Part shown: positions 5,409 to 49,389 of the stretch, piece after piece
How the letters are laid out: each line of letters begins with the position of its first letter
Numbering within the stretch: position 1 is the stretch's first letter
Source of the DNA: an uncultured bacterium
GTDB lineage: Bacteria > Fidelibacterota > Marinisomatia > Marinisomatales > UBA1611
DNA: 64,000 bases
Direction of reading: 5' to 3'
Assembly: GCA_963933175.1 (NCBI GenBank)
Contig: CAWVTW010000001.1
Location: 143 to 64,142, forward strand
Notes under the pieces: generated by a model
The model's database searches: none
What the model saw: the letters and a program-made list of their open reading frames with translations, nothing else
Told to the model about the DNA's origin: nothing
Made by a program: the position numbers and the translations under genes

Positions 5409-5884
5409 CAGTTGATTTTATGTAAAGGGTATATCACTTGGAGGATACCCGCAAAACTTAAAGTATAGATTGTAGTACCGAGCCATTTTTCCCAAAACAG
5501 TTGCGGATTGATCATCCAAATATCTTGATATTGAACTACACAAAAGATCAGAAATTGAAATACAAGAATTGCAACCCAGGATATCGAAAAGTAAATCGGA
5601 TTTAATCGTGAATATGTACCCATGAGATACCCACCAAGATATCCAGTAACAGAATAAATCAACGGTGATAATCCGAAATATGAAGCTGCCCCTGAGAGAT
5701 CAATTAATAATCCTATCAAAAAACCTGAAATTGTTCCGATAGTTCGACCATATTTAATAGACCAATACAATATTAGGATAACAAGGAAATCTGGTCTAAC
5801 TGTCCCTATAGATAAAAAATCCGCAAGCAATAATTGAGCGATCCAAATTAATAAACCCGAGAAAACAAAATCAGTCCATTTCAT
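5408..5884 (-). CDS. mreD: rod shape-determining protein MreD
   Basis: 158-aa multi-TM protein immediately downstream of mreC (14-nt overlap). Size, hydrophobicity and position fit MreD. Confidence 0.7.
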   Translation of the reverse strand: MKWTDFVFSGLLIWIAQLLLADFLSIGTVRPDFLVILILYWSIKYGRTIGTISGFLIGLLIDLSGAASYFGLSPLIYSVTGYLGGYLMGTYSRLNPIYFSISWVAILVFQFLIFCVVQYQDIWMINPQLFWEKWLGTTIYTLSFAGILQVIYPLHKIN

Positions 5885-6671
5885 ATGAATCCTCGATAAT
5901 CACAAAAACAAATTGAAAGGCACTCAAATCATTGGGTGAATTGACATTGATAACTTTTTGAAAACTACCTCGTTCATCATTGACACCTACAACTTTACCA
6001 ACGGGGAGCCCTGCCGGATATATGTCACTGAATCCTGATGTGATAACCTTATCGCCAATATTAATCTCTACATTTTTTTGTACTTCCCGAATCTGACCTC
6101 CAGATTTTCCAAGCCATCTTAAAATGCCTGTTGCTCCACTAGGTAAGATTCTAACACTTAAGCGGTAGTTCACGTCTGTTATTAATTGAACAATAGAAGC
6201 AGTTTCTCCTGCCAGAATTGTTTTTCCAACCACACCTTTTGGTGTAAGGACAGCCTGGTTTGGTTTAATACCATCCCTTTCACCAGCATCGATCACAATG
6301 GAAAGTAAATTAGATTGAACTCCCTTATTTATGACTCGCGCAGGTTTAAGAATGATTTTAGTCTGACGTTTAAAATCCAACATGTCCAATAATTGGTCAT
6401 TCTCTCTTTGAAGATTAAGCATTGATTCAACTTGAAGAGACAAGGCTAGATTTTTTTCCCTGAGAAGTTGGTTTTTTTCTTCTAGGAACATAAGGGATTT
6501 CACCCAGGTCATAGGTGAAGAGATGAATGCAACTGTATCGATCGCTTTCCCTCGAATCACATGCATTCGGGGATCATCGCTATTTAATAGGAGGAAGCTG
6601 GAAAAGACTAGAGCAAGGGCAAAAAGAAGATGATCTTTGTTACGAACAATTGCAAGATAGAGCCCTCGCAT
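5871..6671 (-). CDS. mreC: rod shape-determining protein MreC
   Basis: 266 aa with an N-terminal anchor, coiled coil (LREKNLALSLQVESMLNLQRENDQL) and beta-rich C-terminal domains (GDKVITSGFSDIYPAGLPVGKV). Located downstream of mreB. Confidence 0.85.
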   Translation of the reverse strand: MRGLYLAIVRNKDHLLFALALVFSSFLLLNSDDPRMHVIRGKAIDTVAFISSPMTWVKSLMFLEEKNQLLREKNLALSLQVESMLNLQRENDQLLDMLDFKRQTKIILKPARVINKGVQSNLLSIVIDAGERDGIKPNQAVLTPKGVVGKTILAGETASIVQLITDVNYRLSVRILPSGATGILRWLGKSGGQIREVQKNVEINIGDKVITSGFSDIYPAGLPVGKVVGVNDERGSFQKVINVNSPNDLSAFQFVFVIIEDSYEMD

Positions 6672-13613: not shown

Positions 13614-14543
13614 TTACTCAGTTTCCTGTTCGAGCCAACGTTCTGCATCAATTGCAGCCATACATCCCGTGCCTGCTGCAGTTACTGCTTGTCGATAAAC
13701 ATGGTCTTGTACATCACCACAAGCGAATACCCCTTCTAAATTAGTATAAGTAGTATCTGAGTTTGTAATGATATAACCTGCATTATCCAAATCAATGGAT
13801 CCATTAAACAATTTCGTGTTAGGTATATGGCCAATTGCCATAAAGATTCCATCGCATACGACATCTCGTTTTGCACCTGAAATTGTATCTATTAACCTGA
13901 CTGCCGTAACACCTGTTTCTTTCGTACCGATGATATCATCCACGTTTGAATTGTACTCAACTGATATCTTCGGATTTGCCAAGGCTCTATCAATCATGAT
14001 CTTGGATGCACGAAATTCATCTCTTCGATGAATTAAAACAACTTCGGATGCAAATTTGGTTAAAAATGTGGCTTCTTCCATGGCTGAATCACCGCCACCC
14101 ACTACGAGCACTTTTTTATCTCGAAAGAAAAAACCATCGCAAGTTGCACAGGCTGACACACCATGCCCCATCAATTCGGACTCAGATTCGAGCCCAAGAA
14201 GACGAGCAGTGGCGCCGGTTGAAATTATGATCGCTTCTGCGGAATATTCATTGCCATCAGCCCAAACTTTATATGGACGTTCAGAAAAATCCACTTTATC
14301 AACTGTTTTAAATAAGCATTCAGCACCAAAACGTTGTGCTTGTTTTCTGAATTCATCCATCATATCCGGTCCCATGATTCCATTAGGGAATCCTGGATAA
14401 TTTTCAACATCCGTTGTAATGGTGAGCTGGCCGCCAGGTTGGGTACCTTCGAAGACTAGGGGCTCTAAGTTTGCCCTCGCCGCATAAATAGCTGCAGTGA
14501 GTCCTGCAGGCCCAGAGCCAATAATAATGACCTTCCGCTTCAT
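13614..14543 (-). CDS. trxB: thioredoxin-disulfide reductase
   Basis: 309 aa with [15 protein letters not shown] (FAD), the redox-active CATCDG, and [10 protein letters not shown] (NADPH). Confidence 0.95.
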
Positions 14544-14562
14544 TTCCCTTTTCGTTTCCTAA

Positions 14563-14889
14563 TTAAATAATTTCGTCTAACATTGTAGTGATATTCCCCT
14601 TAGGGACAGCACCAACAATTTGATTTACAACTTTCCCATCTTTCATTATAAGAAGCGTGGGAATACTTCTTATACCATATTTCATGGCAGTATCTTGGTT
14701 TTGATCCACATCAACCTTTCCAACTTTGACTTTTCCATTATATTCTCCTGCAATTTCCTCAATCACAGGTGCAATAGCTTTACAGGGTCCACACCAAGTG
14801 GCCCAAAAGTCAATTAAAACTGGAATATCTGATTGAGAGACATCTGAATCAAAATTTTGATCGGTAAATTTGTGTACGTTTTCCGACAT
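14563..14889 (-). CDS. trxA: thioredoxin
   Basis: WCGPC active site (DFWATWCGPCK). I place the start at ATG 14889 (MSENVHKF), preceded by GGAGA. The track's 14910 start is a TTG. Confidence 0.93.
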   Translation of the reverse strand: MSENVHKFTDQNFDSDVSQSDIPVLIDFWATWCGPCKAIAPVIEEIAGEYNGKVKVGKVDVDQNQDTAMKYGIRSIPTLLIMKDGKVVNQIVGAVPKGNITTMLDEII

Positions 14890-14977
14890 AAGTTCTCCAA
14901 TAATTAACAAAAATAAGCCTAATAACTTAGGACAACTCTTTAATTCCTTGGAATAAAAATATTCAATTATTCTTTGA

Positions 14978-39849: not shown

Positions 39850-41682
39850 ATGATTCCAAGTTCTAAATTCTTATCAAATTTTGGGATAATCATTATTGCC
39901 CTTTTCACCCTATCTTGTGAAACTGTGGAATTGCCCATCGCTGATACAACCCCACCGCAAGCCGTCTTAATATATCCTGTTGATGGCATATCCGTGGCAG
40001 GTGATATTACTGTTCTTGCACGTGCGACAGACAATGAAGAAGTTGATTCCGTACAGTTCTATATAAACCAAATAAAGGTTGGTACAGATAATTCTGGAGT
40101 AGATGATATTTTTGATTTTGAATGGAAAACTGGAGATTATACAGAGGATGAGTTTCATTTTGTATCTATCATTGCATATGATAAGGTACAAAATGCATAT
40201 GCATCTTTTCCAATCCGAATTAAAGCAGATAATCATGATAATGAACCCCCAACTGCATTTTTATTAAATCCATTCTCTGGACAATATGTGAGTGGAATCG
40301 TTAATATTACTGTTGAAGCATCCGATAATGACAGTATACAATATGTGAGTTATTATGTGAATAATGTTCTTCAGGGTTATGTTTTAGAGCCACCCTACAT
40401 TTTTCCATGGAATACTCTTTTGTATTTGGATGACCATTATTCTATTTATGCTCTCGTACGCGATATGAGCAACAATTTAACCACTGTTCCTCCTGTCAAC
40501 GTGATTATTGATAATAATCAACAAAATGATATAACTCCACCAACCGGTTCTATTGTCAGTCCACCCGCCGGATTAACCGTAAGCGGAAGCGTTGATATCA
40601 TTGTTAGTGCAAGTGATAATAGAGCTATGGATGAAGTCGCTTTTTCCATTGATGGTACTTACATCATATCGGATGGTGAAGCACCATACCATTATTCATG
40701 GGATACCACATTGGAAGAAGAAGATATAGAACATACTATCAGTGTTGTTTTGATAGATCTGGCTGGCAATGAATCTCCTTTAAACCCCATTTCTGTTTTT
40801 GTAGATAATGATCCAGCGGGAGATATAACACCGCCAATCGTATTGATCACGAATCCGGTGGCGGGTCAGGATTTAACTGGAACAGTTTCAATCGAAGTAT
40901 TAGCTGAAGATGATTTTGGCATGGATCGAGTTGAATTTTTTATCAATGGTGATTCTGTCCATACGGATACTTCTGATGCATTTAATTATATTTGGGACAC
41001 CGAGACAGTTACCGATGATATGGACCATATTATTGCAGTGGTTGGCTTTGATTTGGATGGGAATGCAACCCTTGCCCCGCCAATCGCAGTCTATGTAGAT
41101 AATTTTGATAATATTCATCCTACTGGTCAAATCCAAAACCCGGTTGCAGGACAAACAGTCACAGGGACAATCACGGTCGAAATTTCAGCCACAGATAATA
41201 TTGGTGTAGAACAAGTCAACTTGTCTATTGACGGTATTCCAAGAGACACTTTAACCACTTCCCCTTACACTTATGAATGGGATACAACAAGTGAGACCGA
41301 CGATGAAGATCATGTCATTAGTATCATTGTTTCTGATTCATCTGATAATATAAGCTATGTGCCTCCAGTGAGTGTTTTTGTAAATAATATCATTGATGAC
41401 ATCACACCGCCTGTTGTGTCTATCTCGAATCCTCTTTCCGGACAAACTGTGAGTGATACTGTTTCCTTTACAGTACAGGCAGTAGATGACTTTGGTGTGA
41501 ATAATGTTGAATTCTTTATCGATGGAGAATCAATTGGTACTGATTACACGGAACCTTATCAAATTGATTGGGACACAACGCCTTTGGAAAATGAAAGCCA
41601 GCATACTTTATCTGCGTACGTAACGGATGATGCAGGGCATACCACAATTGCTCAACCAATTCTCGTAACAATATCCAATTGA
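39850..41682 (+). CDS. surface lipoprotein with six Big_7-type bacterial Ig-like repeats
   Basis: Lipobox LFTLSCE. Six repeats of about 95 aa follow the pattern D(I/T)TPP...I..P..GQ.VSG.V.I.V.A.D..G...VEF.IDG.....D...PY.Y.WDT.......H.I......D..GN. Confidence 0.75.
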   Translation: MIPSSKFLSNFGIIIIALFTLSCETVELPIADTTPPQAVLIYPVDGISVAGDITVLARATDNEEVDSVQFYINQIKVGTDNSGVDDIFDFEWKTGDYTEDEFHFVSIIAYDKVQNAYASFPIRIKADNHDNEPPTAFLLNPFSGQYVSGIVNITVEASDNDSIQYVSYYVNNVLQGYVLEPPYIFPWNTLLYLDDHYSIYALVRDMSNNLTTVPPVNVIIDNNQQNDITPPTGSIVSPPAGLTVSGSVDIIVSASDNRAMDEVAFSIDGTYIISDGEAPYHYSWDTTLEEEDIEHTISVVLIDLAGNESPLNPISVFVDNDPAGDITPPIVLITNPVAGQDLTGTVSIEVLAEDDFGMDRVEFFINGDSVHTDTSDAFNYIWDTETVTDDMDHIIAVVGFDLDGNATLAPPIAVYVDNFDNIHPTGQIQNPVAGQTVTGTITVEISATDNIGVEQVNLSIDGIPRDTLTTSPYTYEWDTTSETDDEDHVISIIVSDSSDNISYVPPVSVFVNNIIDDITPPVVSISNPLSGQTVSDTVSFTVQAVDDFGVNNVEFFIDGESIGTDYTEPYQIDWDTTPLENESQHTLSAYVTDDAGHTTIAQPILVTISN

Positions 41683-44507
41683 TGAAATCTTTTAACCTAA
41701 ATATCATTTTAATTGCCATTCTGTCATTGAGTTGTGAAGGCCCCATGTTCAAAGTCCAAAAGGAACCCGATTCCATTCCTCCTACATTAACCATCACATT
41801 CCCACCTGATCAAGCAATCTTGTCTGATACAGTGCTTGTGTCGGCATATGCGTTTGATAATGTTGAATTAGGCATGGTGACTATGTATTTGAATGATTCT
41901 GTTATCATTTCAAGTAAAGACGCCCCCTACGAATACACATGGATCACGACCGATTATGCAGAAGATGAACAACATACTATTTGGGCCAAAGCAGAAGATG
42001 CTGCAGGTAATTTGACTCAAACCAATCCTATCCGCATATTAATCGATAATTTAGATAATATCAATCCAACCGGCACATTGATCTTCCCTTATACCGGTCA
42101 GACACTTTCTGGAGAAATCACTATTATTGTCGAAGCAAATGATAATGAAGAAGTTGCATTTGTGAATGTCTATATTGATGGTGATACCGTTGCCACGCTT
42201 ACTGAGTCTCCCTATACTTATAATTGGGATACATCGGTTGAAGTTGATGATATTACTTATACCATACACGTTCATATCCAGGATATAACAGGAAACCAGA
42301 TTACCCTCGGTCCAATCAGTGTATTAATTGATAATTATGAAGCTGATGATAATATCCCTCCAACAGGCACAATTATTCACCCACCTTCAGCAGCAACTGT
42401 TTCAGAAACTATTCTTATACAAGTTTCCGCATATGATAACGTTGAAATGGGCTTTGTAGATTTTATCATTGATGGATCCTTCGCAGGACAGGATTCAGTC
42501 TTACCTTATGAATATCTATGGAATACAACGGTAGAAGCTGAAGACGCAGAACATATTATTAATGTAAATCTTACCGATGCAGTCGGGAATACTACCGCTC
42601 TTTTCCCTGTTACGGTTCGTGTTAATAATATTGATGAACCAGATGTGATACCACCAAATGTGGTTATTTACGAACCAGCAGCCAATCAAACAGTTTCCGG
42701 TATGGTGAATATCACAGCAATCGCTTCTGATAATGTAAGCATCAACCGAATCGAGTTTTACCATAATTATGAATTAGAATTCTTAGTGACCTCTTACCCA
42801 TATCAATATGAATGGAATTCAACAACCGCTGAAGATGATTCTGAGCATATCTGGTATGTTAAAGCTTTTGATACCAGTGAGAATAATACACAAACACAAC
42901 CTATTGCCGTTTTTGTGGATAATGAAGATGATATTCCACCTACCGGTTTCATTCTTTATCCCTACGCCGGTCAAACGGTGAGCGGCGTTGTACAGATTCA
43001 GGTCTCAGTATCAGATAATTTAGGAATAGATCAAGTAGAATTTTTTATTGATGGTAATACGGTAGAAATTGATTCTGAATATCCTTATACCCACGATTGG
43101 AATACAGAATTAGCTGCAGAAGATGATGACCACGTCATTTCCATTACGATAACAGATTTAGGAGAAAACTCAACAGATGTCTCCCCTATTGCTGTTTTGG
43201 TTAATAATGTTGTCACACCAGAAGATGACACAACACCACCAGTGCTGGCAATACTTACACCCATTTCAAGTCAAACAGTTGGTGATACCGTTTTAATCTC
43301 TGGTTTTGCCATAGACAACATGGGAATTGCGGATGTGAAATTTTATGTGGATGATGAATTAGTAGCAACAGTAAGCGACTCTCCTTATACGCATAATTGG
43401 GTAACGTATGAACTATCTAACGGATCAGAACATGTGATACAAATGACTGCAAGTGATCTATCAGACAACTTAACAACCGCTCAACCGGTCGTTGTAACTG
43501 TTCAAAATGAATATTATGGAGCAATAGAGAACTTTTCATTATCTGTTTCAGAGGGAAATATCTCCTTGAGCTGGGATTCTCCATACAATGCTGAAACATT
43601 CAAAGTATATAGGGATAGCGTTTTCTTGGCTGAAATATCAGACCAAAGCTATGATGATACTATTGAGAGTGGGGTTGAGTATTGTTATCAAATTTCTGCA
43701 GTAAATAGTGTTGGGATCGAAGGTCCTGTATCCGAAGAAGAATGTGGTGTCCCGCAATTACCGGCTCCGGATTCTTTTAGTGCTACCATTAACGATACAA
43801 ATTTAACTCTGGTTTGGGCTGCAGTGAATAATGCATCCGGGTATATTTTATACCGTGATAATACAGAAATTTGGAATGGCACAGCCTTGACCTTGACAGA
43901 TTTGGGTTTGACTTATAATACCACATATATCTATAACGTGGTTGCCTTTGATTTTGATGGAACCAATGGTACAGAATCAGATCCTTTAAGTGTAACTATG
44001 CCTGAAGAACTCATCGCGCCTATTCTTTCAATTTATGTTTTAGGAACAGATGGATCTTTAAGTTGGACATCATTATCATCTGCAACAGCTTATCGAGTTC
44101 ATCAAGACAGCGTTTTTATTGTAGAAGTCACAACAACTAATTATGAGACTGAGTTAATCCACGGCGTTGAGACTTGCTTTACAGTCACTGCAATTAATGA
44201 TGTTGGTTCAGAGAGTGATTCATCCAATGTAGTATGCGGAACCGGAGATTTTACACCACCTGTTCTGTCTCTTTCAATCACTGAATCAACAATCACTGAA
44301 TCAACGGCTTCTCTTAGCTGGAATTCTGTGGTATCAGCAGAAACTTACAGAGTGTATCAGGATACTAATTTCCTGATCGAAGTTTCTGAAATAACATTAG
44401 ATCTTGAAATTCCTATTGATACAGAAACTTGTTTCGAGATCGAAGCTGTAAATAGTTATGGCACTACAAGCGATACTTCTAATGTAGAATGTGGGACTGG
44501 ATCTTAG
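41682..44507 (+). CDS. surface lipoprotein with six Big_7-type Ig-like repeats and four Fn3-like modules
   Basis: Lipobox LSLSCEG. Six Big_7-like repeats are followed by four modules of type ..SLSW......A..Y.VY(R/Q)D......(V/I)........D......CY/F.(V/I).A(V/I)N..G.(E/S)S. The ATG at 41682 overlaps the upstream TGA (TGATG). Confidence 0.75.
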   Translation: MKSFNLNIILIAILSLSCEGPMFKVQKEPDSIPPTLTITFPPDQAILSDTVLVSAYAFDNVELGMVTMYLNDSVIISSKDAPYEYTWITTDYAEDEQHTIWAKAEDAAGNLTQTNPIRILIDNLDNINPTGTLIFPYTGQTLSGEITIIVEANDNEEVAFVNVYIDGDTVATLTESPYTYNWDTSVEVDDITYTIHVHIQDITGNQITLGPISVLIDNYEADDNIPPTGTIIHPPSAATVSETILIQVSAYDNVEMGFVDFIIDGSFAGQDSVLPYEYLWNTTVEAEDAEHIINVNLTDAVGNTTALFPVTVRVNNIDEPDVIPPNVVIYEPAANQTVSGMVNITAIASDNVSINRIEFYHNYELEFLVTSYPYQYEWNSTTAEDDSEHIWYVKAFDTSENNTQTQPIAVFVDNEDDIPPTGFILYPYAGQTVSGVVQIQVSVSDNLGIDQVEFFIDGNTVEIDSEYPYTHDWNTELAAEDDDHVISITITDLGENSTDVSPIAVLVNNVVTPEDDTTPPVLAILTPISSQTVGDTVLISGFAIDNMGIADVKFYVDDELVATVSDSPYTHNWVTYELSNGSEHVIQMTASDLSDNLTTAQPVVVTVQNEYYGAIENFSLSVSEGNISLSWDSPYNAETFKVYRDSVFLAEISDQSYDDTIESGVEYCYQISAVNSVGIEGPVSEEECGVPQLPAPDSFSATINDTNLTLVWAAVNNASGYILYRDNTEIWNGTALTLTDLGLTYNTTYIYNVVAFDFDGTNGTESDPLSVTMPEELIAPILSIYVLGTDGSLSWTSLSSATAYRVHQDSVFIVEVTTTNYETELIHGVETCFTVTAINDVGSESDSSNVVCGTGDFTPPVLSLSITESTITESTASLSWNSVVSAETYRVYQDTNFLIEVSEITLDLEIPIDTETCFEIEAVNSYGTTSDTSNVECGTGS

Positions 44508-45259
44508 GGGAAAAACTTATCACCATCACAATCATTTAAAGAATGAACCAAATGAATTGTGTCATAATTACCAGAACTAAATGAGATTGTTCCCGAATCG
44601 GGATTAGAAAGGTTTATCGAATAATATTCAGGTAATCTATTATAATTGACAGTCTCAAGCCCTGAACTATCTTCATTAAATTCAAATACTGTATAATTAT
44701 AAATCATCCAGCCATTTCCTATCCAGTTTATGGAATCCAAATACGACTCCGAAGATAATGTCATTTCCGCAATCGTGTCAAACATTGATGACAATGTATC
44801 ATTACCCATATTCAGGTAGATTGTAGAAGGTATGCTATAATTGACCGGTTGGACACAAATTGTTATCGAATCATAATTTGAGAAAGTCCAATTCCCAGAT
44901 GGTTTATAACATTCAATGAAAATAGAGTCCGAAAATTCACCAGTATTTGTGGATTGATCTTTCGCTCTTATCTTATATCCAAATGATTCCTGCCAAATGA
45001 TTGTCGTATCTGAGAAAGATAAAACAGATGCACCTACTTTTGATAATGAGTCAAAAGACTGGCCCAAATCAGTAGTCCTGAATATATGGTATTCGCTTAC
45101 ATCATCTGATGCGGATTCATACCAGGTGATTTGAATTCTAGGGTTACCATTATTAAGCGTAAAAAAGCCTCGAAGTCCAGTCGGGTAATCTGGAGCATCT
45201 TCATCAATATCACAGCCTACAAATAATAAGAAAACAATTAAAAATATTTTACGGGTCAT
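44504..45259 (-). CDS. hypothetical lipoprotein with one Fn3-like module
   Basis: Lipobox LLFVGCD. The segment IQITWYESASDDVSEYHIFRT...FGYKIRAKDQSTNTGEFS is Fn3-like. It is convergent with the 942-aa gene. Confidence 0.5.
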   Translation of the reverse strand: MTRKIFLIVFLLFVGCDIDEDAPDYPTGLRGFFTLNNGNPRIQITWYESASDDVSEYHIFRTTDLGQSFDSLSKVGASVLSFSDTTIIWQESFGYKIRAKDQSTNTGEFSDSIFIECYKPSGNWTFSNYDSITICVQPVNYSIPSTIYLNMGNDTLSSMFDTIAEMTLSSESYLDSINWIGNGWMIYNYTVFEFNEDSSGLETVNYNRLPEYYSINLSNPDSGTISFSSGNYDTIHLVHSLNDCDGDKFFP

Positions 45260-45288: not shown

Positions 45289-45318
45289 AAAAAGCCCCGA
45301 TTTCTCGGGGCTTTTTTT
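45289..45318. terminator. strong bidirectional rho-independent terminator downstream of tRNA-Gly
   Basis: aaaaAGCCCCGA-tttc-TCGGGGCTtttttt, a perfect 8-bp stem flanked by A and T runs. Confidence 0.85.
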
Positions 45319-45321
45319 ATG

Positions 45322-45394
45322 AGCGAGAGACGAGATTCGAACTCGCGACCCCCACGTTGGCAACGTGATGCTCTACCAGCTGAGCTACTCTCGC
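45322..45394 (-). tRNA. tRNA-Gly (anticodon GCC)
   Basis: The reverse complement is gcgagagtagctcagctggtagagcatcacgttgccaacgtgggggtcgcgagttcgaatctcgtctctcgct. It forms a cloverleaf with anticodon loop TTGCCAA and T loop TTCGAAT. Confidence 0.93.
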
Positions 45395-45448: not shown

Positions 45449-45898
45449 TTAGTCTGACAACGGAGTTTTTGGGAATAATTCGAAAAGTTTTTGCTGCCGC
45501 TGCCAAACCAAATAGGATGCACCAAGAAAAACTAAGTTTTCTAAAATTTTATTCCATCCTACCATTTCGCCTTCTTTTAACCCACAACCACATTCTATAT
45601 TAAATCCTCGAAGCGTGGCTTGAAAAATGAATAAAATGAATAGTGCCATCAAACCACCACTGATCATTGATGCACCATCTACCATCAAACCGGCAACCAA
45701 TCCAATGCCTATAAATAATTCTAACCATGGAATTATCAGGGCTATTAAATTTTCAAACCCCATGGGTATTAAATGATAATTGGCTATATCACGTGCAAAT
45801 TTCCCAGGATCAAGAATCTTATCATAACTTGCATAAATAAAAATAATCCCAAGTAGGATCCTTATTATAACGATTAGCCAAGGATGAAGTTTATTCAT
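45449..45898 (-). CDS. MauE/DoxX-family redox-associated membrane protein
   Basis: Four hydrophobic helices and the loop motif FNIECGCG, as in the MauE/DoxX family (recognised from memory). The ATG at 45898 overlaps the rhodanese stop by 8 nt. Confidence 0.65.
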   Translation of the reverse strand: MNKLHPWLIVIIRILLGIIFIYASYDKILDPGKFARDIANYHLIPMGFENLIALIIPWLELFIGIGLVAGLMVDGASMISGGLMALFILFIFQATLRGFNIECGCGLKEGEMVGWNKILENLVFLGASYLVWQRQQKLFELFPKTPLSD

Positions 45899-46373
45899 GT
45901 GTTTCAATTTCCAAGCCAGCATCCGTCCAGGATTTCCATCCTCCTTTGAAAACGAATATGTTCATAAATCCAAAATCTTGTAAATCATAGGCCAATTCTT
46001 TACTGGAACCACAATCATCATCGCTGCAATAGACCACGAACCCTTTTTCATATCCGATTAAATGCTCAATCTGTTCTGATAACAGTTCCACATCATCATT
46101 GGCTATGGCTCCTGGAATCATACCAGCCGGTAAGTATTCTTCTGCTCTGGCATCTACAAACAATAATCCTGTTCCGTGCAGTGATTTTGCCATTTCGAGA
46201 TCAATTTCTCGTATTTCCGGTTCTGATAAAGTTAATAATACATCATTGACATTCTTAACAACTTCTATTGGTTCAGCCATCCAGGATATGGCATCAGATC
46301 GAACCAAATTGGATATTAAGCCAACCAGAATAGAAACTGTTATAATGAATGTTACCTGTTGTTTTAAACTCAC
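45891..46373 (-). CDS. membrane-anchored single-domain rhodanese-like protein
   Basis: N-terminal TM helix (VTFIITVSILVGLISNLV). Rhodanese fold pattern LFVDARAEEEY..G.IPGA ... FVVYCSDDDCGSSKELA...GF.N..VF.GGW..W. Confidence 0.7.
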   Translation of the reverse strand: MSLKQQVTFIITVSILVGLISNLVRSDAISWMAEPIEVVKNVNDVLLTLSEPEIREIDLEMAKSLHGTGLLFVDARAEEYLPAGMIPGAIANDDVELLSEQIEHLIGYEKGFVVYCSDDDCGSSKELAYDLQDFGFMNIFVFKGGWKSWTDAGLEIETHE

Positions 46374-46397
46374 AATAAAGGTGAATCTGGATTTGGG

Positions 46398-47603
46398 TTA
46401 ATGATCGTGGCCACTGTGATTTTGATTTTTCTTAGATATTGGTTTACCTTTTTTATTTGATTTGGATTTTGGTTTTGCGGTCTTAGGTTTCAATGAACTA
46501 CATGTAGCTAGAGATTCATCAACGAATGCCAATAGTTCCGGATTATCCTGAATTTTATTATTCAATGCAATTGTTTCAAATTTTAATGTATTCTGAGCTG
46601 ATTTTATCGCAGCTTCAGACTCTTTCAATTTGTTTCGATTTTGTTCAATAATTTTCAAAACGTTGGCCTGACCAGCATACAATTCGTCTAATGATTTATT
46701 TGGATCTTTCTTTTGCAGACGTTCAAATCTTTTTCGAATTGAAGAAATATTTTTTTCGTGGGAAGAGATATCAACGATTGGAGCTTTTTTATCCTCCATT
46801 TCGACACTTAATACAGACATATATTTACCTTGTTTACCACAGGAGTATAAGAAAGGTCCTCCCTCTTTTTGTCTCGTATTTTCCCGGGTCATATTTGTAC
46901 TTCCACTGGTCACAATGAAATCGGCATTTGCAAATAACGTTGGTAATTCACTATATGTTTTTCTATTACTGTTCACCATGATCACAATGATATCTGCTTG
47001 TTTGGACGCTTCATCTATATAATAATTCCCTGCTTCAATATAGTTATCAGCGATCATACTCTTGGTTGAATCGGGTAATTTATCTGTGACGCCCACAATT
47101 CCAATTTTCAGTAATCCCTTTTCAATAATTCGGAAAGGTTTAAATAATAGCTTATTAGTTTGTGGATCACGAAGATTGGCTGAGAGAAAAGGTATTTCAG
47201 TTTTTTCTTCCATACTTTTCAAAAATGGGAGTCCATTCAGCACTTCATAATGCCCTACATTGATAGCATCACAGCCAACTCTGTTATACCCTTCTAAGAT
47301 GGCAGCAGCACGATATAACTCTGATTTTTTATTGGTAGAATTTAAATTTGCAGTGCTGAAAAATAAATCTCCAGCATCAATAATCAGTGGATCGACCCCC
47401 GAATCACGGAGTTCATTCATTTTAACAAAACGTCTGGACAGACCGCCCAGAGGATTCTTTTTTCAGCCACACGGGTCTAGTTGACCATGAACACTGCCGG
47501 ACAACACAATTGTAACGGATCCGTATCCAGACACCTTTGAGCAAGATGAGAGAAACAGGAAAAACATGAGCGTAGTGATTGAATATTTTACCATAGATTT
47601 CAT
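46398..47603 (-). CDS. candidate selenocysteine-containing lipoprotein, degenerate metallophosphoesterase/5'-nucleotidase-like (read-through of TGA at complement 47463-47465)
   Basis: The track ORF 46398..47420 extends in the same frame to ATG 47603 or 47594 with a single TGA. The upstream part encodes the lipoprotein signal MFFLFLSSC and VTIVLSGSVHGQLDPCG-U-KKNPLGGLSRRFVK. A SECIS-like hairpin lies 11 nt after the TGA. GD motif IIDAGDLF is present, but motifs I and III are degenerate. Confidence 0.6.
47433..47451 (-). promoter_or_regulatory. putative bacterial SECIS stem-loop
   Basis: The mRNA reads UGA-AAAAAGAAUCC-UCUGGGC-GGUCU-GUCCAGA, a 7-bp stem (one G.U pair) with a 5-nt loop. The loop G and U fall at +23 and +24 from the U of UGA, as in E. 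coli fdhF. Confidence 0.55.
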
Positions 47604-47609
47604 TTATTT

Positions 47610-47933
47610 TTATCCGCCACTGAGTTTGACAGAATATCCTTTTTTTATTAATAATTTTTGAATTTTTTCACGTTTATTCCCCTGGATCAAAATTTCTCCA
47701 TTCTTAACCGATCCACCAACACCACATCCACTTTTTAACTCTTTTGCTATAACCATTAGAACATCAATTGTTTCTTGTAAACCTCTCACGATAGAAACAA
47801 CTTTACCTCCTCCTTTCCTATCCAAATGAAGACGAATTTGTTGCTGAGATGGGTCTAGAATAGGACTGATTTCTGTTTCATTTTTCAATGAAACTCCTTG
47901 ATCTGTGGAGTAGATAAGTTTTGAATTAGTCAT
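47610..47933 (-). CDS. yciH: SUI1/YciH-family translation initiation factor
   Basis: IRLHLDRKGGGKVVSIVRGL...LKSGCGVGGSVKNGEILIQGNKREKI...G..VKLSGG is the SUI1 domain pattern. The start is placed at MTNSKLIY. Confidence 0.85.
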   Translation of the reverse strand: MTNSKLIYSTDQGVSLKNETEISPILDPSQQQIRLHLDRKGGGKVVSIVRGLQETIDVLMVIAKELKSGCGVGGSVKNGEILIQGNKREKIQKLLIKKGYSVKLSGG

Positions 47934-48039
47934 AATTGTTCTTTCAGAACAAATAAAGAACAAAATTGTTCCCTTTTACAAGGTGAAAACATACTAATTT
48001 TTTGAAGTAATTAAACAACTACAATTCAGTGGAAATGAA

Positions 48040-49389
48040 ATGAACTGTTTACATATTGTAATGAGAAAATTTATCCAAATCATACTTATTATTATTTCCT
48101 GCCTTCAAGGACAAGATTCCAGCTCAGCAAATGGATCTCTTGCAGAAACCGGAATCTTTTTAAAAGACCTTCATTTTGATTGGAAACCACCACATAAAGA
48201 TAATGGAACATTTTATTCTATTGATCTCCATGAATTCAAATTTGGATTTTCTGATCTAAGTTTCTCCCAAGAACAAAAAGACAGTAAACATAAGATCAAA
48301 ACCCGGATCTCTGGCCCAAATTTAAAAATAGATCAGCTCGTCCTAAATGTAAAGATCACTTCGGAAAATTGGTTAACCCGTGAAAGGATTCGCCGATTGG
48401 AAGAAAGACAAGAAAACCCTAAATCTGCTTTAAGCCTGATTGCAAATGCAATAGACCTTTACAAAGTAGATCTGGAAGAAAACCCTAAATCATTGAATGA
48501 CCTTTATGTTAAACAATACCTGAACCTTGATGCCTATCCTTTTGACGACCATACATGGTCCTATTCATTCACGTTACCAGAACAAATTATAGCTCAACCA
48601 ACGCAAATAAACCCTGTCATTGAAACCAAACCCTTAATTCTTGATTGGAATACCCGGGAATTTCAATTTGATCCTATCCAGGATTCTCTTTATAAAGTGC
48701 CCTTTGTTCAATGGGATTACATATTGGATATTCAATCAATTTCTCAATTATTTTCGTCAAAATTGGAAATCGATATTTCACCTGATAAGACCGCCTTTGA
48801 TCTCCTGCTTAAACGAGGACAATTTAAATTAGATGATATTTCTTTTACTGCAACACCCGGAGATCAGCTTACTAATCGGTCTCAAGTATTTCTCCCATCT
48901 CTTAATCTAGAAACAAATAATTTTGCTCTATCTGGTGATTTAAAATCCAAACCCATCTTTCATCAAGGACAAGGGAAATTCTCCCTTCGTAATTTTGAAA
49001 TCAAGATTCCAGATGATTTGAGAGAAGAGCCCGAAATTCAAGCCATGATAGAATCATTAGGTATCTGGAACAATTCTCTCAAGATCAGGTTAGTTGAATT
49101 GGAATTGAATTTGCTCAATGAGCATACAGGAGAAATTAGTTTTATTTTTCAAACACCTTTTATAAAAATCAGTGTCAATGGGGATTTTTCAATTCGTCAA
49201 GATGAGATTCATCCTGAAATATTGCTTCATCAAATGGAGATTAAAATTCATCCTATTGCACTGGGTGTTAGAAAATGGATACGGGAGTGGGAAAGAACGA
49301 ATGGAAGATCACTCAAAAGAAAGGGTGCTACCGTCGTATTAAAAGTGGAAGGGTCTTTAGAAAATCCAGTGATTCATGGAATGGATTAA
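48040..49389 (+). CDS. hypothetical exported protein
   Basis: 449 aa. Signal peptide MRKFIQIILIIISCLQG (alternative start 48061). No family recognised. Confidence 0.5.
   Translation: MNCLHIVMRKFIQIILIIISCLQGQDSSSANGSLAETGIFLKDLHFDWKPPHKDNGTFYSIDLHEFKFGFSDLSFSQEQKDSKHKIKTRISGPNLKIDQLVLNVKITSENWLTRERIRRLEERQENPKSALSLIANAIDLYKVDLEENPKSLNDLYVKQYLNLDAYPFDDHTWSYSFTLPEQIIAQPTQINPVIETKPLILDWNTREFQFDPIQDSLYKVPFVQWDYILDIQSISQLFSSKLEIDISPDKTAFDLLLKRGQFKLDDISFTATPGDQLTNRSQVFLPSLNLETNNFALSGDLKSKPIFHQGQGKFSLRNFEIKIPDDLREEPEIQAMIESLGIWNNSLKIRLVELELNLLNEHTGEISFIFQTPFIKISVNGDFSIRQDEIHPEILLHQMEIKIHPIALGVRKWIREWERTNGRSLKRKGATVVLKVEGSLENPVIHGMD

What the first reader, a model, noticed from the sequence alone, without database searches (positions are those of the whole stretch)
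45449..47603. Tightly linked Sec-lipoprotein, membrane-anchored rhodanese and MauE/DoxX trio, each with a paired Cys/Sec motif
The three genes are separated by 24 nt and by an 8-nt overlap, so they are probably co-transcribed. They follow yciH and precede tRNA-Gly and a strong terminator. Each product carries closely spaced chalcogen residues predicted to lie in or near the envelope. The lipoprotein has DPCG-U. The rhodanese, which has an N-terminal TM anchor, has VVYCSDDDCGSS (CxxxC instead of the classical CRxGxR loop). The 4-TM MauE/DoxX protein has NIECGCG. MauE-family proteins are implicated in disulfide formation during methylamine dehydrogenase maturation, and rhodaneses carry persulfide or perselenide. 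I infer an envelope thiol/selenol or sulfane-sulfur relay that services the degenerate phosphoesterase-like lipoprotein. I do not know of a characterised system with this composition.
Basis: inference. Interest (0 to 1): 0.7.

Follow-up and report, generated by a model that had tools for sequence, protein, structure and literature searches.

The report
Selenoprotein with dedicated MauE–rhodanese redox module
A marine Marinimicrobia bacterium keeps an exported selenocysteine protein of unknown function next to a membrane disulfide-forming enzyme (MauE) and a rhodanese-type partner, which suggests a previously undescribed periplasmic thiol/selenol relay and gives a long-orphan ocean selenoprotein family a testable function.

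Summary

The UGA encodes selenocysteine:
- It is kept in every Marinimicrobia homologue examined.
- Three proteobacterial/myxococcal homologues have Cys there.
- A hairpin with a GGUCU loop follows it and shows compensatory changes.

The lipoprotein is a relative of the already catalogued 'UshA-like CxU' selenoprotein family (GOS 2008; NCBIfam NF041198, scored below its cutoff). That family has no known function.

What is new:
- The three genes stay together in three architectures: UshA–rhod–MauE, rhod–MauE–UshA, and a rhod::MauE fusion followed by UshA.
- Rhodanese–MauE is itself a widespread two-gene or fused module.

A 2026 preprint shows that MauE is a DsbB-like disulfide generator, probably quinone-linked, whose active site is the CXC motif.

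My best reading is a dedicated periplasmic oxidative relay: lipoprotein Cys/Sec → rhodanese CX4C → MauE CXC → quinone, with a rhodanese fold in DsbA's place. The direction of flow, the chemistry and the substrate are inferred, not shown.

The parts
47610..47963 (-). yciH (SUI1-type translation factor). It ends 6 nt upstream of the lipoprotein start and may be co-transcribed. It is a syntenic neighbour, not part of the relay.
   Evidence: PF01253 5e-17 and TIGR01158 2e-24. It is adjacent in most type-A loci but absent or displaced in L055, L056, L059, L060, L063 and L065.
46398..47603 (-). Exported UshA-fold selenoprotein of 401 aa. It has a degenerate 5'-nucleotidase N-domain, a helical C-terminal part and an HSGHDH tail.
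   Evidence: Translation. NF041198 scores 223.7 bits against a cutoff of 275. PDB profile hits to UshA/CD73 at 1e-14. AF2 model of the 65%-identical P0005 has pLDDT 79.5. Foldseek against UshA gives 5e-16.
47541..47603 (-). Signal peptide with lipobox L-S-S-C21.
   Evidence: Read from the translation. The Cys is kept in the close homologues P0005, P0015 and P0089. Type-C homologues have an ordinary signal peptide instead.
47463..47471 (-). C45-G46-U47 motif. The UGA Sec codon is at 47463-47465.
   Evidence: C45, G46 and U/C47 are invariant in 24 diverse family members. Cys replaces Sec in L072-L074.
47433..47451 (-). Bacterial SECIS-like hairpin, UCUGGGC-GGUCU-GUCCAGA. Its 7-bp stem starts 15 nt after the U of UGA.
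   Evidence: Fold. Alignment A4 (51 sequences): pair 18-30 is GC27/AU14/GU5/CG2/UA2/UG1 with none unpaired. Covariation is 0.229 against 0.118 for shuffles (0 of 500 shuffles reach it). The hairpin is kept in types B and C, where the 3' arm encodes L-A-R.
46401..46418 (-). C-terminal His-rich tail, HSGHDH.
   Evidence: The pattern HxGH[DN]H or HDHDHHHHHHH is present in many type A, B and C members. It is absent in paralogue B and in deep-branching type-A members.
45891..46373 (-). Membrane-anchored periplasmic rhodanese-fold protein, 160 aa. It starts at GTG and has a hydrophobic anchor at residues 7-24.
   Evidence: PF00581 1.9e-10. Hydropathy. Co-linear fusion P0305 = anchor-rhodanese-TM-MauE.
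46011..46028 (-). Rhodanese active-site loop C116-S-D-D-D-C121 (CX4C).
   Evidence: TGC AGC GAT GAT GAT TGT, read. C116 aligns with the catalytic Cys of 6mxv (YCGGGFRS), and the loop is 2 residues longer and acidic. Both Cys are invariant in 46 orthologues. Fusions and distant pairs have YC[SGD]G[ED]xC.
45449..45922 (-). MauE/DoxX four-helix membrane protein. The probable start is M9 at 45898.
   Evidence: PF07291 3e-27. The AF2 model has helices 6-29, 49-69, 73-96 and 115-132, with pLDDT 67.
45584..45592 (-). MauE C111-G-C113 (CXC) in the TM3-TM4 loop.
   Evidence: TGT GGT TGT, read. It is invariant in 44 orthologues and in 28 diverse MauE sequences, together with the Lys of TM1 and the Glu of TM2. 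It was shown to be the active site in two MauE proteins (bioRxiv 10.64898/2026.03.05.709764).
45321..45394 (-). tRNA-Gly(GCC), 54 nt downstream of the MauE stop.
   Evidence: ARAGORN and Rfam. It holds the same position in nearly all type-A loci.
45289..45316 (-). Intrinsic terminator hairpin followed by U5.
   Evidence: -19.9 kcal/mol, z = -5.17, and 0 of 200 shuffles fold as well. The consensus scan missed it.

Best explanation
The three genes encode one periplasm-facing thiol/selenol redox relay built around an exported selenoenzyme.

- MauE is a DsbB-like four-helix membrane protein. It makes a disulfide at its periplasmic C111-G-C113 and passes the electrons to quinone.
- Its direct partner is not a thioredoxin-fold DsbA or MauD. 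It is the membrane-anchored rhodanese-fold protein, whose catalytic Cys116 and the extra Cys121 in an enlarged acidic loop cycle between dithiol and disulfide.
- The rhodanese in turn exchanges with the Cys45-Gly-Sec47 centre of the UshA-fold lipoprotein and converts it to a selenenylsulfide.
- The lipoprotein has lost the metallophosphoesterase catalytic residues. It uses the C-G-U centre, placed on the loop after motif I next to the remnant of the old metal site, as its reactive centre on an unknown periplasmic substrate.

Net flow: substrate or lipoprotein Cys/Sec → rhodanese CX4C → MauE CXC → quinone.

Shown here: gene order, Sec decoding, motif invariance, conserved linkage in three architectures, and the rhodanese-MauE fusions.
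Shown by others: MauE's DsbB-like activity and its CXC active site.
Inferred: that the rhodanese is MauE's partner, that the lipoprotein is the client, the direction of flow, and the substrate.
For: Sec decoding.
- The TGA is conserved in all Marinimicrobia homologues, and Cys takes its place in L072-L074.
- The SECIS hairpin covaries at synonymous sites and persists when the encoded residues change.

Linkage.
- Type A (UshA-rhod-MauE) occurs in 42 of 59 informative GTDB loci, down to 33% identity, including loci without yciH.
- Type A was recovered again in 47 metagenome loci found through MauE.
- Type B (rhod-MauE-UshA) occurs in L143 and L146.
- Type C is a rhodanese::MauE fusion overlapping the start of a Sec UshA-like gene by 4 nt (L157, L158, L160; 8 nt in L161/L162). 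It lies in a different neighbourhood, next to a SurA-like gene (GroES/EL further upstream in L157), in another Marinimicrobia clade.

Rhodanese-MauE as a unit.
- A rhodanese sits immediately upstream of MauE in 66 of 68 informative loci. These include loci from unrelated GC-rich and GC-poor lineages.
- Fusions exist in both orders, and an added TM helix keeps the rhodanese on the periplasmic side.

Motifs.
- Rhodanese C116/C121 and MauE C111/C113 are invariant.
- C116 is the canonical catalytic Cys.

MauE function.
- MauE complements E. coli dsbB, and mutating the CXC abolishes this.
- Quinone docks in the model, and the conserved Lys and Glu are present here (bioRxiv 10.64898/2026.03.05.709764).

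The lipoprotein as a redox client.
- The GNHE positions are variable, D→S/N at position 37, and only C45, G46, U47, D76, S141 and N143 are invariant polar residues.
- Its paralogue B in the same genomes sits next to an exported TlpA-like WCKPC thioredoxin.

Precedents.
- The periplasmic rhodanese PspE can substitute for DsbA (Chng 2012, cited in PMC5403849).
- The M. tuberculosis DoxX-SseA complex (PMC6930017).
Against: - There is no experiment on any member of the trio.
- tRNA-Gly is as syntenic as the trio within type-A loci, so type-A conservation alone is weak evidence.
- The rhodanese-MauE pair is common without any UshA-like gene. It is found next to YceI-like lipoproteins in L124/127/128/132/141 and alone in distant phyla. 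It may therefore be a general module.
- One Marinimicrobia clade keeps the Sec lipoprotein but lacks the pair at the locus (L001-L004, L017, L027, L030). Paralogue B also works without it.
- MauE alone oxidises E. coli DsbA in the preprint, so a rhodanese partner is not obligatory.
- The window's MauE has CGCG-L instead of the family's conserved CGC-F-G.
- The CGU loop is modelled with pLDDT below 50, so accessibility and geometry are unknown.
- Topology was inferred, not predicted with a dedicated tool. My hydropathy script was ambiguous.
- Foldseek did not link the MauE model to DsbB or VKOR. The only probable hit was NACHO/TMEM35A, prob 0.97, E = 0.32.
- The preprint cites one earlier study that considered MauE a reductase.
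Confidence: 0.55

Rival explanations
1. Rhodanese-MauE is simply the organism's general periplasmic disulfide-forming machinery, a DsbA/DsbB substitute. Its position next to the selenoprotein gene is inherited synteny with no specific functional tie.
For: - MauE is proposed as a generalist disulfide generator.
- The pair is widespread without UshA-like genes.
- tRNA-Gly is equally syntenic.
- One clade keeps the Sec protein without the pair at the locus.
Against: - Adjacency survives a gene-order inversion, a gene fusion and relocation to another neighbourhood.
- Gaps are tight or overlapping: 24 nt, an 8-nt overlap, and a 4-nt overlap.
- A second, closely related rhodanese-MauE pair sits next to a different lipoprotein, YceI-like. 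That suggests dedicated pairs rather than one housekeeping system.
Confidence: 0.2
2. The trio is a sulfane-sulfur (or perselenide) relay. The rhodanese carries a persulfide on C116, MauE/DoxX acts like the DoxD subunit of thiosulfate:quinone oxidoreductase, and the SoxB-related lipoprotein processes a sulfur adduct.
For: - The rhodanese catalytic Cys is retained.
- MauE also matches DoxX.
- The lipoprotein shows weak similarity to SoxB: 41 bits, and 56 bits for the Cys homologue.
- Marinimicrobia are linked to marine sulfur cycling (my own knowledge, not tested here).
Against: - The rhodanese loop is acidic (CSDDDC) and lacks the basic residues of CRxGxR that bind thiosulfate.
- A conserved second Cys in the loop points to dithiol-disulfide chemistry.
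- The dimetal ligands and the catalytic His of SoxB and 5'-nucleotidases are not conserved.
- The MauE experiments show disulfide formation.
Confidence: 0.12
3. The components are the same but the flow is reversed. Quinol-driven MauE and the rhodanese reduce the selenenylsulfide of the lipoprotein, which then acts as a periplasmic reductase, for example of peroxides, sulfoxides or oxidised chalcogen compounds.
For: - Selenoproteins with C-x-U centres are usually reductases or peroxidases (general knowledge).
- Paralogue B sits next to a TlpA/AhpC-TSA-like protein, a family that usually works reductively.
- The preprint cites an earlier claim that MauE is a reductase.
Against: - MauE complements an oxidase defect (dsbB).
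- It lacks the features of DsbD/CcdA-type reductant importers.
- Quinol is a poor reductant for disulfides (general knowledge).
Confidence: 0.1
4. The lipoprotein is a chalcophile-metal binding or handling protein (Cu, Zn, Ni, Hg), using Cys/Sec and the His-rich tail. The MauE-rhodanese pair only keeps its ligands in the correct redox state.
For: - His-rich C-terminal tails are found in many members: HSGHDH, HDHDHHHHHHH, HIGHDHNGDGIPDH.
- MauE is fused to CDF cation-efflux transporters in other lineages (P0321, P0300, P0433).
- In L152 the pair lies next to a Met/His-rich small protein and the end of an RND pump.
Against: - The tail is missing in paralogue B and in deep-branching type-A members.
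- No metal-transport gene lies in the window's locus.
- This reading is compatible with the main explanation rather than exclusive of it.
Confidence: 0.08
5. The TGA is a genuine stop or a pseudogene lesion, so the locus encodes a 46-aa peptide and a separate 340-aa protein.
For: Most public gene calls split the gene at the TGA or read it as Trp.
Against: - The frame, the flanking residues and the TGA itself are conserved across all Marinimicrobia homologues.
- Cys orthologues exist.
- The SECIS hairpin covaries.
- The export signal lies upstream of the TGA.
Confidence: 0.01

Closest known systems
DsbB-DsbA and MauE-MauD disulfide-forming pairs (MauE as a DsbB-like enzyme; bioRxiv 10.64898/2026.03.05.709764)
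   Same: A four-helix membrane protein with a periplasmic redox-active Cys pair (CXC in the TM3-TM4 loop) and conserved Lys and Glu, probably linked to quinone. It works with a dedicated periplasmic dithiol partner encoded next to it or fused to it.
   Different: The partner here has a rhodanese fold with CX4C, not a thioredoxin fold with CXXC. The apparent client is a Cys-Sec centre of one specific lipoprotein, not structural disulfides in general. The Phe after the CXC is Gly in this clade. The preprint does not mention rhodanese partners.
UshA-like CxU selenoprotein family (COG0737; Zhang & Gladyshev 2008, PMC2398784; NCBIfam NF041198 'UshA_like_PCGU'; review PMC13188914)
   Same: A 5'-nucleotidase-type N-domain with the P-C-G-U motif. 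It is abundant in marine metagenomes, and Cys homologues exist.
   Different: The window protein scores below the curated cutoff (223.7 against 275) and covers only profile positions 4-407 of 519. It has a lipobox and a His tail. Neither paper's text contains the words MauE or DoxX, and no function is assigned.
Mycobacterium tuberculosis membrane-associated oxidoreductase complex DoxX-SseA-SodA (cited in PMC6930017)
   Same: A DoxX-superfamily membrane protein working with a rhodanese-type protein in thiol redox homeostasis.
   Different: SseA is a classical thiosulfate sulfurtransferase, and SodA is the third partner. No selenoprotein, no CXC MauE-type motif and no UshA fold are involved. The genes are not organised as this trio.
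E. coli PspE, a periplasmic rhodanese that restores disulfide formation in dsbA mutants (Chng et al. 2012, cited in PMC5403849)
   Same: A periplasmic rhodanese-fold protein acting as an oxidant donor in a disulfide pathway.
   Different: PspE has a single Cys and acts through sulfenic acid and DsbC when overexpressed. Here two invariant Cys lie in the loop, and a membrane oxidase is encoded alongside.
TsoB, rhodanese/DsbD fusion-like selenoprotein (NF045694, motif UxxxxU; PMC13188914)
   Same: A rhodanese domain with two chalcogen residues at the same X4 spacing, joined to a membrane thiol-disulfide protein, in a selenoprotein operon.
   Different: The membrane part of TsoB is DsbD-like (reductive import), the chalcogens are Sec, and the similarity to the window rhodanese is only weak (E = 0.0015).
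Thiosulfate:quinone oxidoreductase DoxDA and the B. fragilis DoxDA-TrxP operon (PMC6158253)
   Same: A DoxX-superfamily membrane protein that couples S-S bond chemistry to quinone, encoded next to an exported thiol protein.
   Different: DoxDA lacks the MauE CXC motif and acts on thiosulfate. No rhodanese or selenoprotein is involved.

Membership tests
UshA-like (seleno)protein, NCBIfam NF041198 (PCGU) | 5'-nucleotidase/UshA-type N-terminal metallophosphatase fold | tested here: met
   PDB profile search: UshA 8.7e-15, CD73 1e-12. Foldseek of the AF2 model: UshA 5e-16.
UshA-like (seleno)protein, NCBIfam NF041198 (PCGU) | P-C-G-U/C motif directly after phosphoesterase motif I | tested here: met
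   DPCG-U at residues 43-47. The motif is invariant in 24 diverse members.
UshA-like (seleno)protein, NCBIfam NF041198 (PCGU) | HMM score at or above the curated cutoff (275 bits) | tested here: not met
   223.7 bits, covering profile positions 4-407 of 519. Type-B (198.9 bits) and Cys (183.9 bits) relatives are also below the cutoff. NF041198 is still the best-scoring family.
Bacterial selenoprotein (Sec decoding) | In-frame UGA with Cys in orthologues, and a SECIS hairpin just downstream | tested here: met
   The Sec machinery (selA/B/D, tRNA-Sec) is not in the window and could not be checked genome-wide.
Catalytically active 5'-nucleotidase / calcineurin-like phosphoesterase | Dimetal ligands (D, H, D, N, H, H) and the GNHE catalytic His | tested here: not met
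   Motif I Asp → S37 (S/N across the family). GNHE → G-(H/Q/S/K/T)-(Y/K/F)-(E/D). D79 → N in type C. H39 → N in L161.
SoxB thiosulfohydrolase (TIGR04486) | HMM score at or above the cutoff (550 bits) | tested here: not met
   41.4 bits.
MauE (PF07291), DsbB-like disulfide generator | Pfam score above the gathering threshold | tested here: met
   95.9 bits against 27.
MauE (PF07291), DsbB-like disulfide generator | CXC active site in the loop between TM3 and TM4 | tested here: met
   C111-G-C113. The model places it between helices 73-96 and 115-132 (149-aa numbering). It is invariant.
MauE (PF07291), DsbB-like disulfide generator | Conserved Lys in TM1 and Glu in TM2 near the predicted quinone site | tested here: met
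   K27 and E60 (149-aa numbering) are invariant in 28 diverse sequences, including the window's. The feature is described.
MauE (PF07291), DsbB-like disulfide generator | Conserved Phe-Gly after the CXC | tested here: not met
   The window and its close orthologues have CGC-G-L. Distant pairs and fusions have CGCF.
MauE (PF07291), DsbB-like disulfide generator | Replaces DsbB in vivo and reduces quinone | not testable with these tools
   Shown only for the C. abyssi and D. aliphaticivorans proteins.
Rhodanese sulfurtransferase (PF00581) | Pfam score above the gathering threshold, and a catalytic Cys at the start of the active-site loop | tested here: met
   41.5 bits against 22.2. C116 aligns with the Cys of YCGGGFRS in 6mxv.
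Rhodanese sulfurtransferase (PF00581) | Six-residue basic active-site loop, CRxGx[RT] | tested here: not met
   The loop is C-S-D-D-D-C-G-S: two residues longer, acidic, and with a second Cys.
DsbA/MauD-type periplasmic partner | Thioredoxin fold with CXXC | tested here: not met
   The partner encoded beside MauE is a rhodanese-fold CX4C protein. A thioredoxin-type neighbour is found only for paralogue B.
M. tuberculosis DoxX-SseA-SodA complex | DoxX membrane protein, rhodanese and superoxide dismutase acting together | tested here: not met
   No SodA lies in the locus. Only the DoxX-superfamily plus rhodanese pairing is shared.

The most novel reading that the evidence does not exclude
The trio is a new kind of periplasmic, quinone-coupled selenoenzyme system. 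The UshA-fold Cys-Gly-Sec lipoprotein is the catalytic subunit that oxidises a small reduced substrate (a thiol, sulfide or polysulfide, or another chalcogen or metalloid species). The rhodanese CX4C and MauE carry the electrons into the quinone pool. This would be a previously unrecognised electron-entry module of SAR406/Marinimicrobia, with a rhodanese fold taking over the DsbA role.
Probability: 0.2. Interest if true: 0.85.

Novelty: new variant of a known kind. Interest (0 to 1): 0.62.

Why it matters
- The UshA-like CxU protein has been listed among the major marine selenoprotein families since 2008 without any functional lead. A conserved, sometimes fused, MauE-rhodanese partner gives it a concrete and testable biochemical context.
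- The finding extends the newly proposed MauE disulfide pathway. In a large MauE subfamily the encoded partner is a rhodanese-fold CX4C protein rather than a thioredoxin-fold DsbA or MauD. If correct, this is a new type of periplasmic disulfide carrier and a new role for the rhodanese fold.
- The organisms (SAR406/Marinimicrobia) are abundant and uncultured, so such modules bear on ocean redox and selenium biology.
- On the practical side, public gene calls split this gene at the TGA or translate the TGA as Trp.

Tried and rejected
- Rfam search of the window at gathering thresholds: only three tRNAs, no SECIS family hit.
- Folding the single sequence downstream of the UGA was not significant on its own (z = -0.02). 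Only the 51-sequence alignment showed the hairpin.
I therefore modelled P0005, which is 65% identical and has Trp at the Sec position. Its CGU loop came out with pLDDT below 50, so the geometry could not be read.
- The homologue search with MauE was saturated by close Marinimicrobia relatives. The representative search was needed to reach the fusions.
- My hydropathy and positive-inside script gave ambiguous TM2-TM4 boundaries. No dedicated topology predictor was available.
- The consensus terminator scan flagged the SECIS hairpin and missed the real terminator.
- A TlpA-like hit elsewhere in the window turned out to be ordinary TrxA next to TrxB, not a selenoprotein.
- A literature hit for 'MauE' in a C. 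jejuni paper was only an author's name.
- The genome-contig scan used the patterns [VM]HGQLDPC and G[WC]KKNP[LM]GG. Sampling outside Marinimicrobia is therefore biased and thin.
- I considered filing the lipoprotein as SoxB-like or as an active nucleotidase, and rejected both because the ligand and catalytic residues are lost.

Full report
**1. What is at the coordinates**

The region 45449-47963 carries four ORFs on the minus strand, followed by a tRNA gene.
- yciH (47610-47963) is a SUI1/YciH-type factor.
- Six nucleotides downstream, a 402-codon frame (46398-47603) is interrupted by a single TGA at 47463-47465. The translation reads MKSMVKYSITTLMFFLFLSSC...SGSVHGQLDPCG*KKNPLGGLSRR...HSGHDH.
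- After a 24-nt gap comes a 160-aa rhodanese (45891-46373, GTG start; PF00581, E = 1.9e-10).
- Overlapping its stop is a MauE/DoxX protein (45449-45922; PF07291 3e-27, PF07681 1.7e-8).
- tRNA-Gly(GCC) follows at 45321-45394.
- A strong hairpin with a U-run lies at 45289-45316 (-19.9 kcal/mol, z = -5.2).

The three motifs are present as reported, with one correction. The rhodanese motif YCSDDDCG has the spacing C-X4-C, not CxxxC.

**2. The organism and the selenocysteine**

The closest proteins come from marine metagenomes and from MAGs labelled Candidatus Marinimicrobia, Neomarinimicrobiota or Fidelibacterota.

Most public gene calls start just after the TGA, giving products of about 340 aa. 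A few full-length calls read the codon as Trp, DPCGW. Both are signs of a mis-handled Sec codon.

- In the 76 loci first collected, every Marinimicrobia homologue has a stop at this position. 73 of them, plus the window, match the exact DNA pattern ending in TGA.
- Three GC-rich homologues labelled Proteobacteria or Myxococcota have HGE.EDCGCKKNP.GGL instead.
- Fifteen nucleotides after the UGA lies a hairpin, UCUGGGC-GGUCU-GUCCAGA (47433-47451).
- In a 51-sequence alignment the central pair takes six standard pair types (GC27, AU14, GU5, CG2, UA2, UG1), and no sequence is unpaired. These changes fall on synonymous third positions of a Leu codon and a Ser codon.
- Covariation is 0.229 against 0.118 in shuffles (0 of 500 shuffles reach it). 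Slid registers drop to 23-50% paired, against 87% for the true register.
- The hairpin persists in divergent clades where the 3' arm encodes Leu-Ala-Arg rather than Leu-Ser-Arg. It is not recovered in the Cys homologues.

I conclude that U47 is selenocysteine. The Sec machinery is not in the window and could not be checked.

**3. The lipoprotein**

The best family hit is NCBIfam NF041198, 'UshA_like_PCGU, UshA-like (seleno)protein'. The score is 223.7 bits, under the curated cutoff of 275, and covers only positions 4-407 of the 519-position profile.

The family is already catalogued.
- 'COG0737, UshA-like, CxU' had 76 Sec sequences and 92 Cys homologues in the GOS survey. It was singled out there as one of the few major families without a classical redox motif (PMC2398784).
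- It appears again in the 2022 and 2026 reviews.
- No function is given in any of these.

Fold evidence:
- A profile search and an AF2 model of a 65%-identical homologue (pLDDT 79.5) place it in the N-terminal metallophosphatase domain of 5'-nucleotidases. UshA scores 8.7e-15 by sequence and 5e-16 by Foldseek.
- The C-terminal nucleotidase domain is replaced by a helical segment.

The catalytic apparatus is gone.
- Against Thermus 5'-nucleotidase, the motif I Asp is Ser or Asn.
- GNHE becomes G-(variable)-(Y/K/F)-(E/D).
- Across 24 diverse members the only invariant polar residues are C45, U/C47, D76, S141 and N143.

The C-G-U triplet sits on the loop right after motif I. That loop is modelled with low confidence.

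The window protein has a lipobox (LSSC21). Other clades have an ordinary signal peptide. Many members end in a His-rich tail such as HSGHDH or HDHDHHHHHHH.

**4. Is the trio a unit?**

Within the window's clade (type A: UshA-rhod-MauE):
- 42 of 59 GTDB species-representative loci with at least 1 kb of downstream sequence have the rhodanese and MauE directly after the Sec gene.
- UshA-like identity goes down to 33%, and the set includes loci where yciH is absent or displaced.
- 47 more such loci were recovered from metagenomes by searching with MauE.

By itself this is weaker than it looks, because tRNA-Gly is just as constant downstream.

Stronger evidence comes from rearrangements.
- In L143 and L146 the order is rhodanese, MauE, then the Sec protein (HGEVDPCG-U-KKKPLGG).
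- In another Marinimicrobia clade (for example GCA_014381415.1) the rhodanese and MauE are fused into one 350-363-aa protein. Its gene overlaps, by 4 nt in L157, L158 and L160 (8 nt in L161/L162), the start of a Sec UshA-like gene (HGETDPCG-U-KKKPLGG...HIGHDHNGDGIPDH). The neighbourhood is different: a divergently transcribed SurA-like gene in all these loci, with GroES/EL further upstream in L157.

Three architectures and two genomic contexts with the same three parts argue for functional coupling.

Exceptions:
- A small clade keeps the Sec gene directly followed by tRNA-Gly, with no rhodanese or MauE (L001-L004, L017, L027, L030).
- Thirteen genomes carry a second Sec paralogue (about 46% identical) without the pair. 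Where upstream sequence exists, this paralogue is often preceded by an exported TlpA/AhpC-TSA-like thioredoxin with WCKPC (L047, L050, L054, L062).
- The three Cys homologues have neither partner nearby.

**5. Rhodanese-MauE is a module in its own right**

- The MauE family is large: 8137 representative clusters at E ≤ 1e-3.
- I scanned ten of the longer hits against Pfam. Four are rhodanese-MauE fusions, in both orders. Others are fused to CDF cation-efflux transporters, an HTH domain, or TraB.
- P0305 reads anchor - rhodanese (VIYCSGEDCS) - TM - MauE (HCGCF). P0281 reads MauE - TM - rhodanese (TYCSGEECH). In both, the extra helix keeps the rhodanese on the side of the membrane opposite MauE's termini.
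- In the MauE-seeded metagenome scan, 66 of 68 informative loci have a rhodanese immediately upstream. These include lineages with GC from 0.35 to 0.69 and only 36-46% MauE identity.
- Five loci have a YceI-like lipoprotein (PF04264), not an UshA-like one, in front of a closely related pair.
- The CX4C loop (YC[SGD]G[ED]xC) and the MauE CGC are conserved throughout. In 28 diverse MauE sequences the invariant residues include K27, E60, C103, G104 and C105.
- C116 aligns with the catalytic Cys of a solved rhodanese. The loop is two residues longer and acidic.

**6. What MauE does**

A March 2026 preprint (bioRxiv 10.64898/2026.03.05.709764) reports the following.
- MauE from Caldithrix abyssi and from Desulfatibacillum restore motility and PhoA activity to E. 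coli ΔdsbB.
- Mutating either Cys of the CGC motif abolishes this.
- Topology prediction places the motif in the periplasmic TM3-TM4 loop.
- Ubiquinone docks near a conserved Lys (TM1) and Glu (TM2).
- 8.2% of MauE entries are fused to thioredoxin-family domains.

Rhodanese is not mentioned in the preprint.

My model of the window's MauE (pLDDT 67) has four long helices with the CGC between helices 3 and 4. Foldseek gave no significant PDB match. The only probable hit was NACHO/TMEM35A, which I recall to be a DoxX-family protein.

The window clade has Gly-Leu where the family has Phe-Gly after the CXC.

**7. Best explanation and rivals**

I read the locus as a dedicated periplasmic relay. MauE generates a disulfide and hands the electrons to quinone. 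The anchored rhodanese-fold CX4C protein plays the DsbA/MauD role. The Cys45-Gly-Sec47 centre of the lipoprotein is the client, cycling to a selenenylsulfide.

- Shown here: Sec decoding, motif invariance, linkage and fusion.
- Shown by others: MauE's activity.
- Inferred: that the rhodanese is the partner, the direction of flow, and the lipoprotein's substrate.

Precedents make each step plausible.
- PspE, a periplasmic rhodanese, can replace DsbA (Chng 2012, cited in PMC5403849).
- DoxX and the rhodanese SseA form a complex in M. tuberculosis (PMC6930017).
- TsoB is a rhodanese with UxxxxU joined to a DsbD-like membrane part (PMC13188914).

Rivals:
- The pair is the general Dsb system and the adjacency is incidental (0.2).
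- A sulfane-sulfur or TQO-like relay (0.12). The acidic loop and the lost SoxB-type ligands weaken this.
- The same parts running in the reductive direction (0.1).
- A metal-handling role suggested by the His tails and the MauE-CDF fusions (0.08). This is compatible with the main reading.
- A genuine stop codon (0.01).

**8. Novelty and score**

Already known:
- The selenoprotein family.
- MauE's enzymology, from a preprint.
- Rhodanese and DoxX working together, in outline.

Not found in the papers I searched and read:
- The rhodanese CX4C-MauE module, as adjacent genes and as fusions.
- Its conserved coupling to the UshA-like Sec protein.

I class this as a new variant of a known kind: a DsbB/DsbA-type relay with a rhodanese carrier and a selenoprotein client. 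I score interest at 0.62. It would moderately surprise specialists in Dsb systems or in selenoproteins, and established assays can test it directly.

Noticed in passing
window 45321-45394; L002 6130-6203; L004 6109-6182; about 25 further loci: tRNA-Gly(GCC) sits directly after MauE in nearly all type-A loci. In the clade lacking rhodanese and MauE it sits directly after the Sec gene, as if the two-gene module had been cleanly inserted or excised between the Sec gene and the tRNA.
   Followed up: partly
L047 5248-7065; L050 5324-7035; L054; L062: A second Sec-containing UshA-like paralogue (about 46% identical, motif DPCG-U-[KP]KKP) occurs in the same genomes (13 assemblies carry both). It is preceded by an exported TlpA/AhpC-TSA-like thioredoxin (WCKPC) and two conserved lipoproteins with no Pfam match.
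   Followed up: partly
L124 2364-3926; L127; L128 97-1668; L132 623-2191; L141: A closely related rhodanese (VVYCSDDDCGSSEDL) and MauE (ECGCGLKEGQMVG) pair sits behind a YceI-like lipoprotein (PF04264, 1e-20) rather than an UshA-like gene. This suggests that different lipoprotein clients use the same module.
   Followed up: partly
P0321, P0300, P0433: MauE domains are fused to CDF cation-efflux transporters (Cation_efflux + ZT_dimer + MauE), one of them from Acidobacteriota. Other MauE proteins are fused to an HTH domain or a TraB/PrgY domain. The link to metal transport is unexplained.
   Followed up: no
L152 673-2414: In one distant locus the rhodanese-MauE pair follows a Met/His-rich small periplasmic protein (no Pfam hit) and the C-terminus of a protein that I judged by eye, without a search, to resemble an RND-type efflux pump. 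This hints at a copper or metal context.
   Followed up: no
window 47433-47451 and 45289-45316: The consensus terminator scan reported the SECIS hairpin as its only terminator-like site. It missed the real, much stronger terminator after tRNA-Gly.
   Followed up: yes
P0005, P0015-P0017, P0087, P0089; L005 4809-4949 / 5001-6005: Public gene calls either translate the Sec codon as Trp (DPCGW, presumably a code-4 gene model) or split the gene into a 46-aa ORF and a ~340-aa ORF. The family is therefore systematically mis-annotated in databases.
   Followed up: yes
window 39850-44507 (+) and 44504-45259 (-): Just downstream of the operon lie very large surface-type proteins built from repeated Big_7 Ig-like domains (610 and 942 aa), and a 251-aa lipoprotein with no Pfam match. 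The same Big_7 proteins flank the locus in related contigs.
   Followed up: no
window 48040-49389 (+): A 449-aa protein with no Pfam hit, divergently oriented from yciH, is conserved at the same place in related Marinimicrobia contigs.
   Followed up: no
window 13614-14910 (-): Ordinary thioredoxin reductase (CATC) and thioredoxin (WCGPC) genes lie side by side. I checked them because of a weak TlpA-like hit. Neither is a selenoprotein.
   Followed up: yes
L161 4293-5435: In the most divergent fusion-type locus the near-invariant His of the HG motif before DPCG-U is replaced (NINNEIDPCG-U), while the C-G-U and the SECIS hairpin are kept. The His is therefore not essential to the family.
   Followed up: partly
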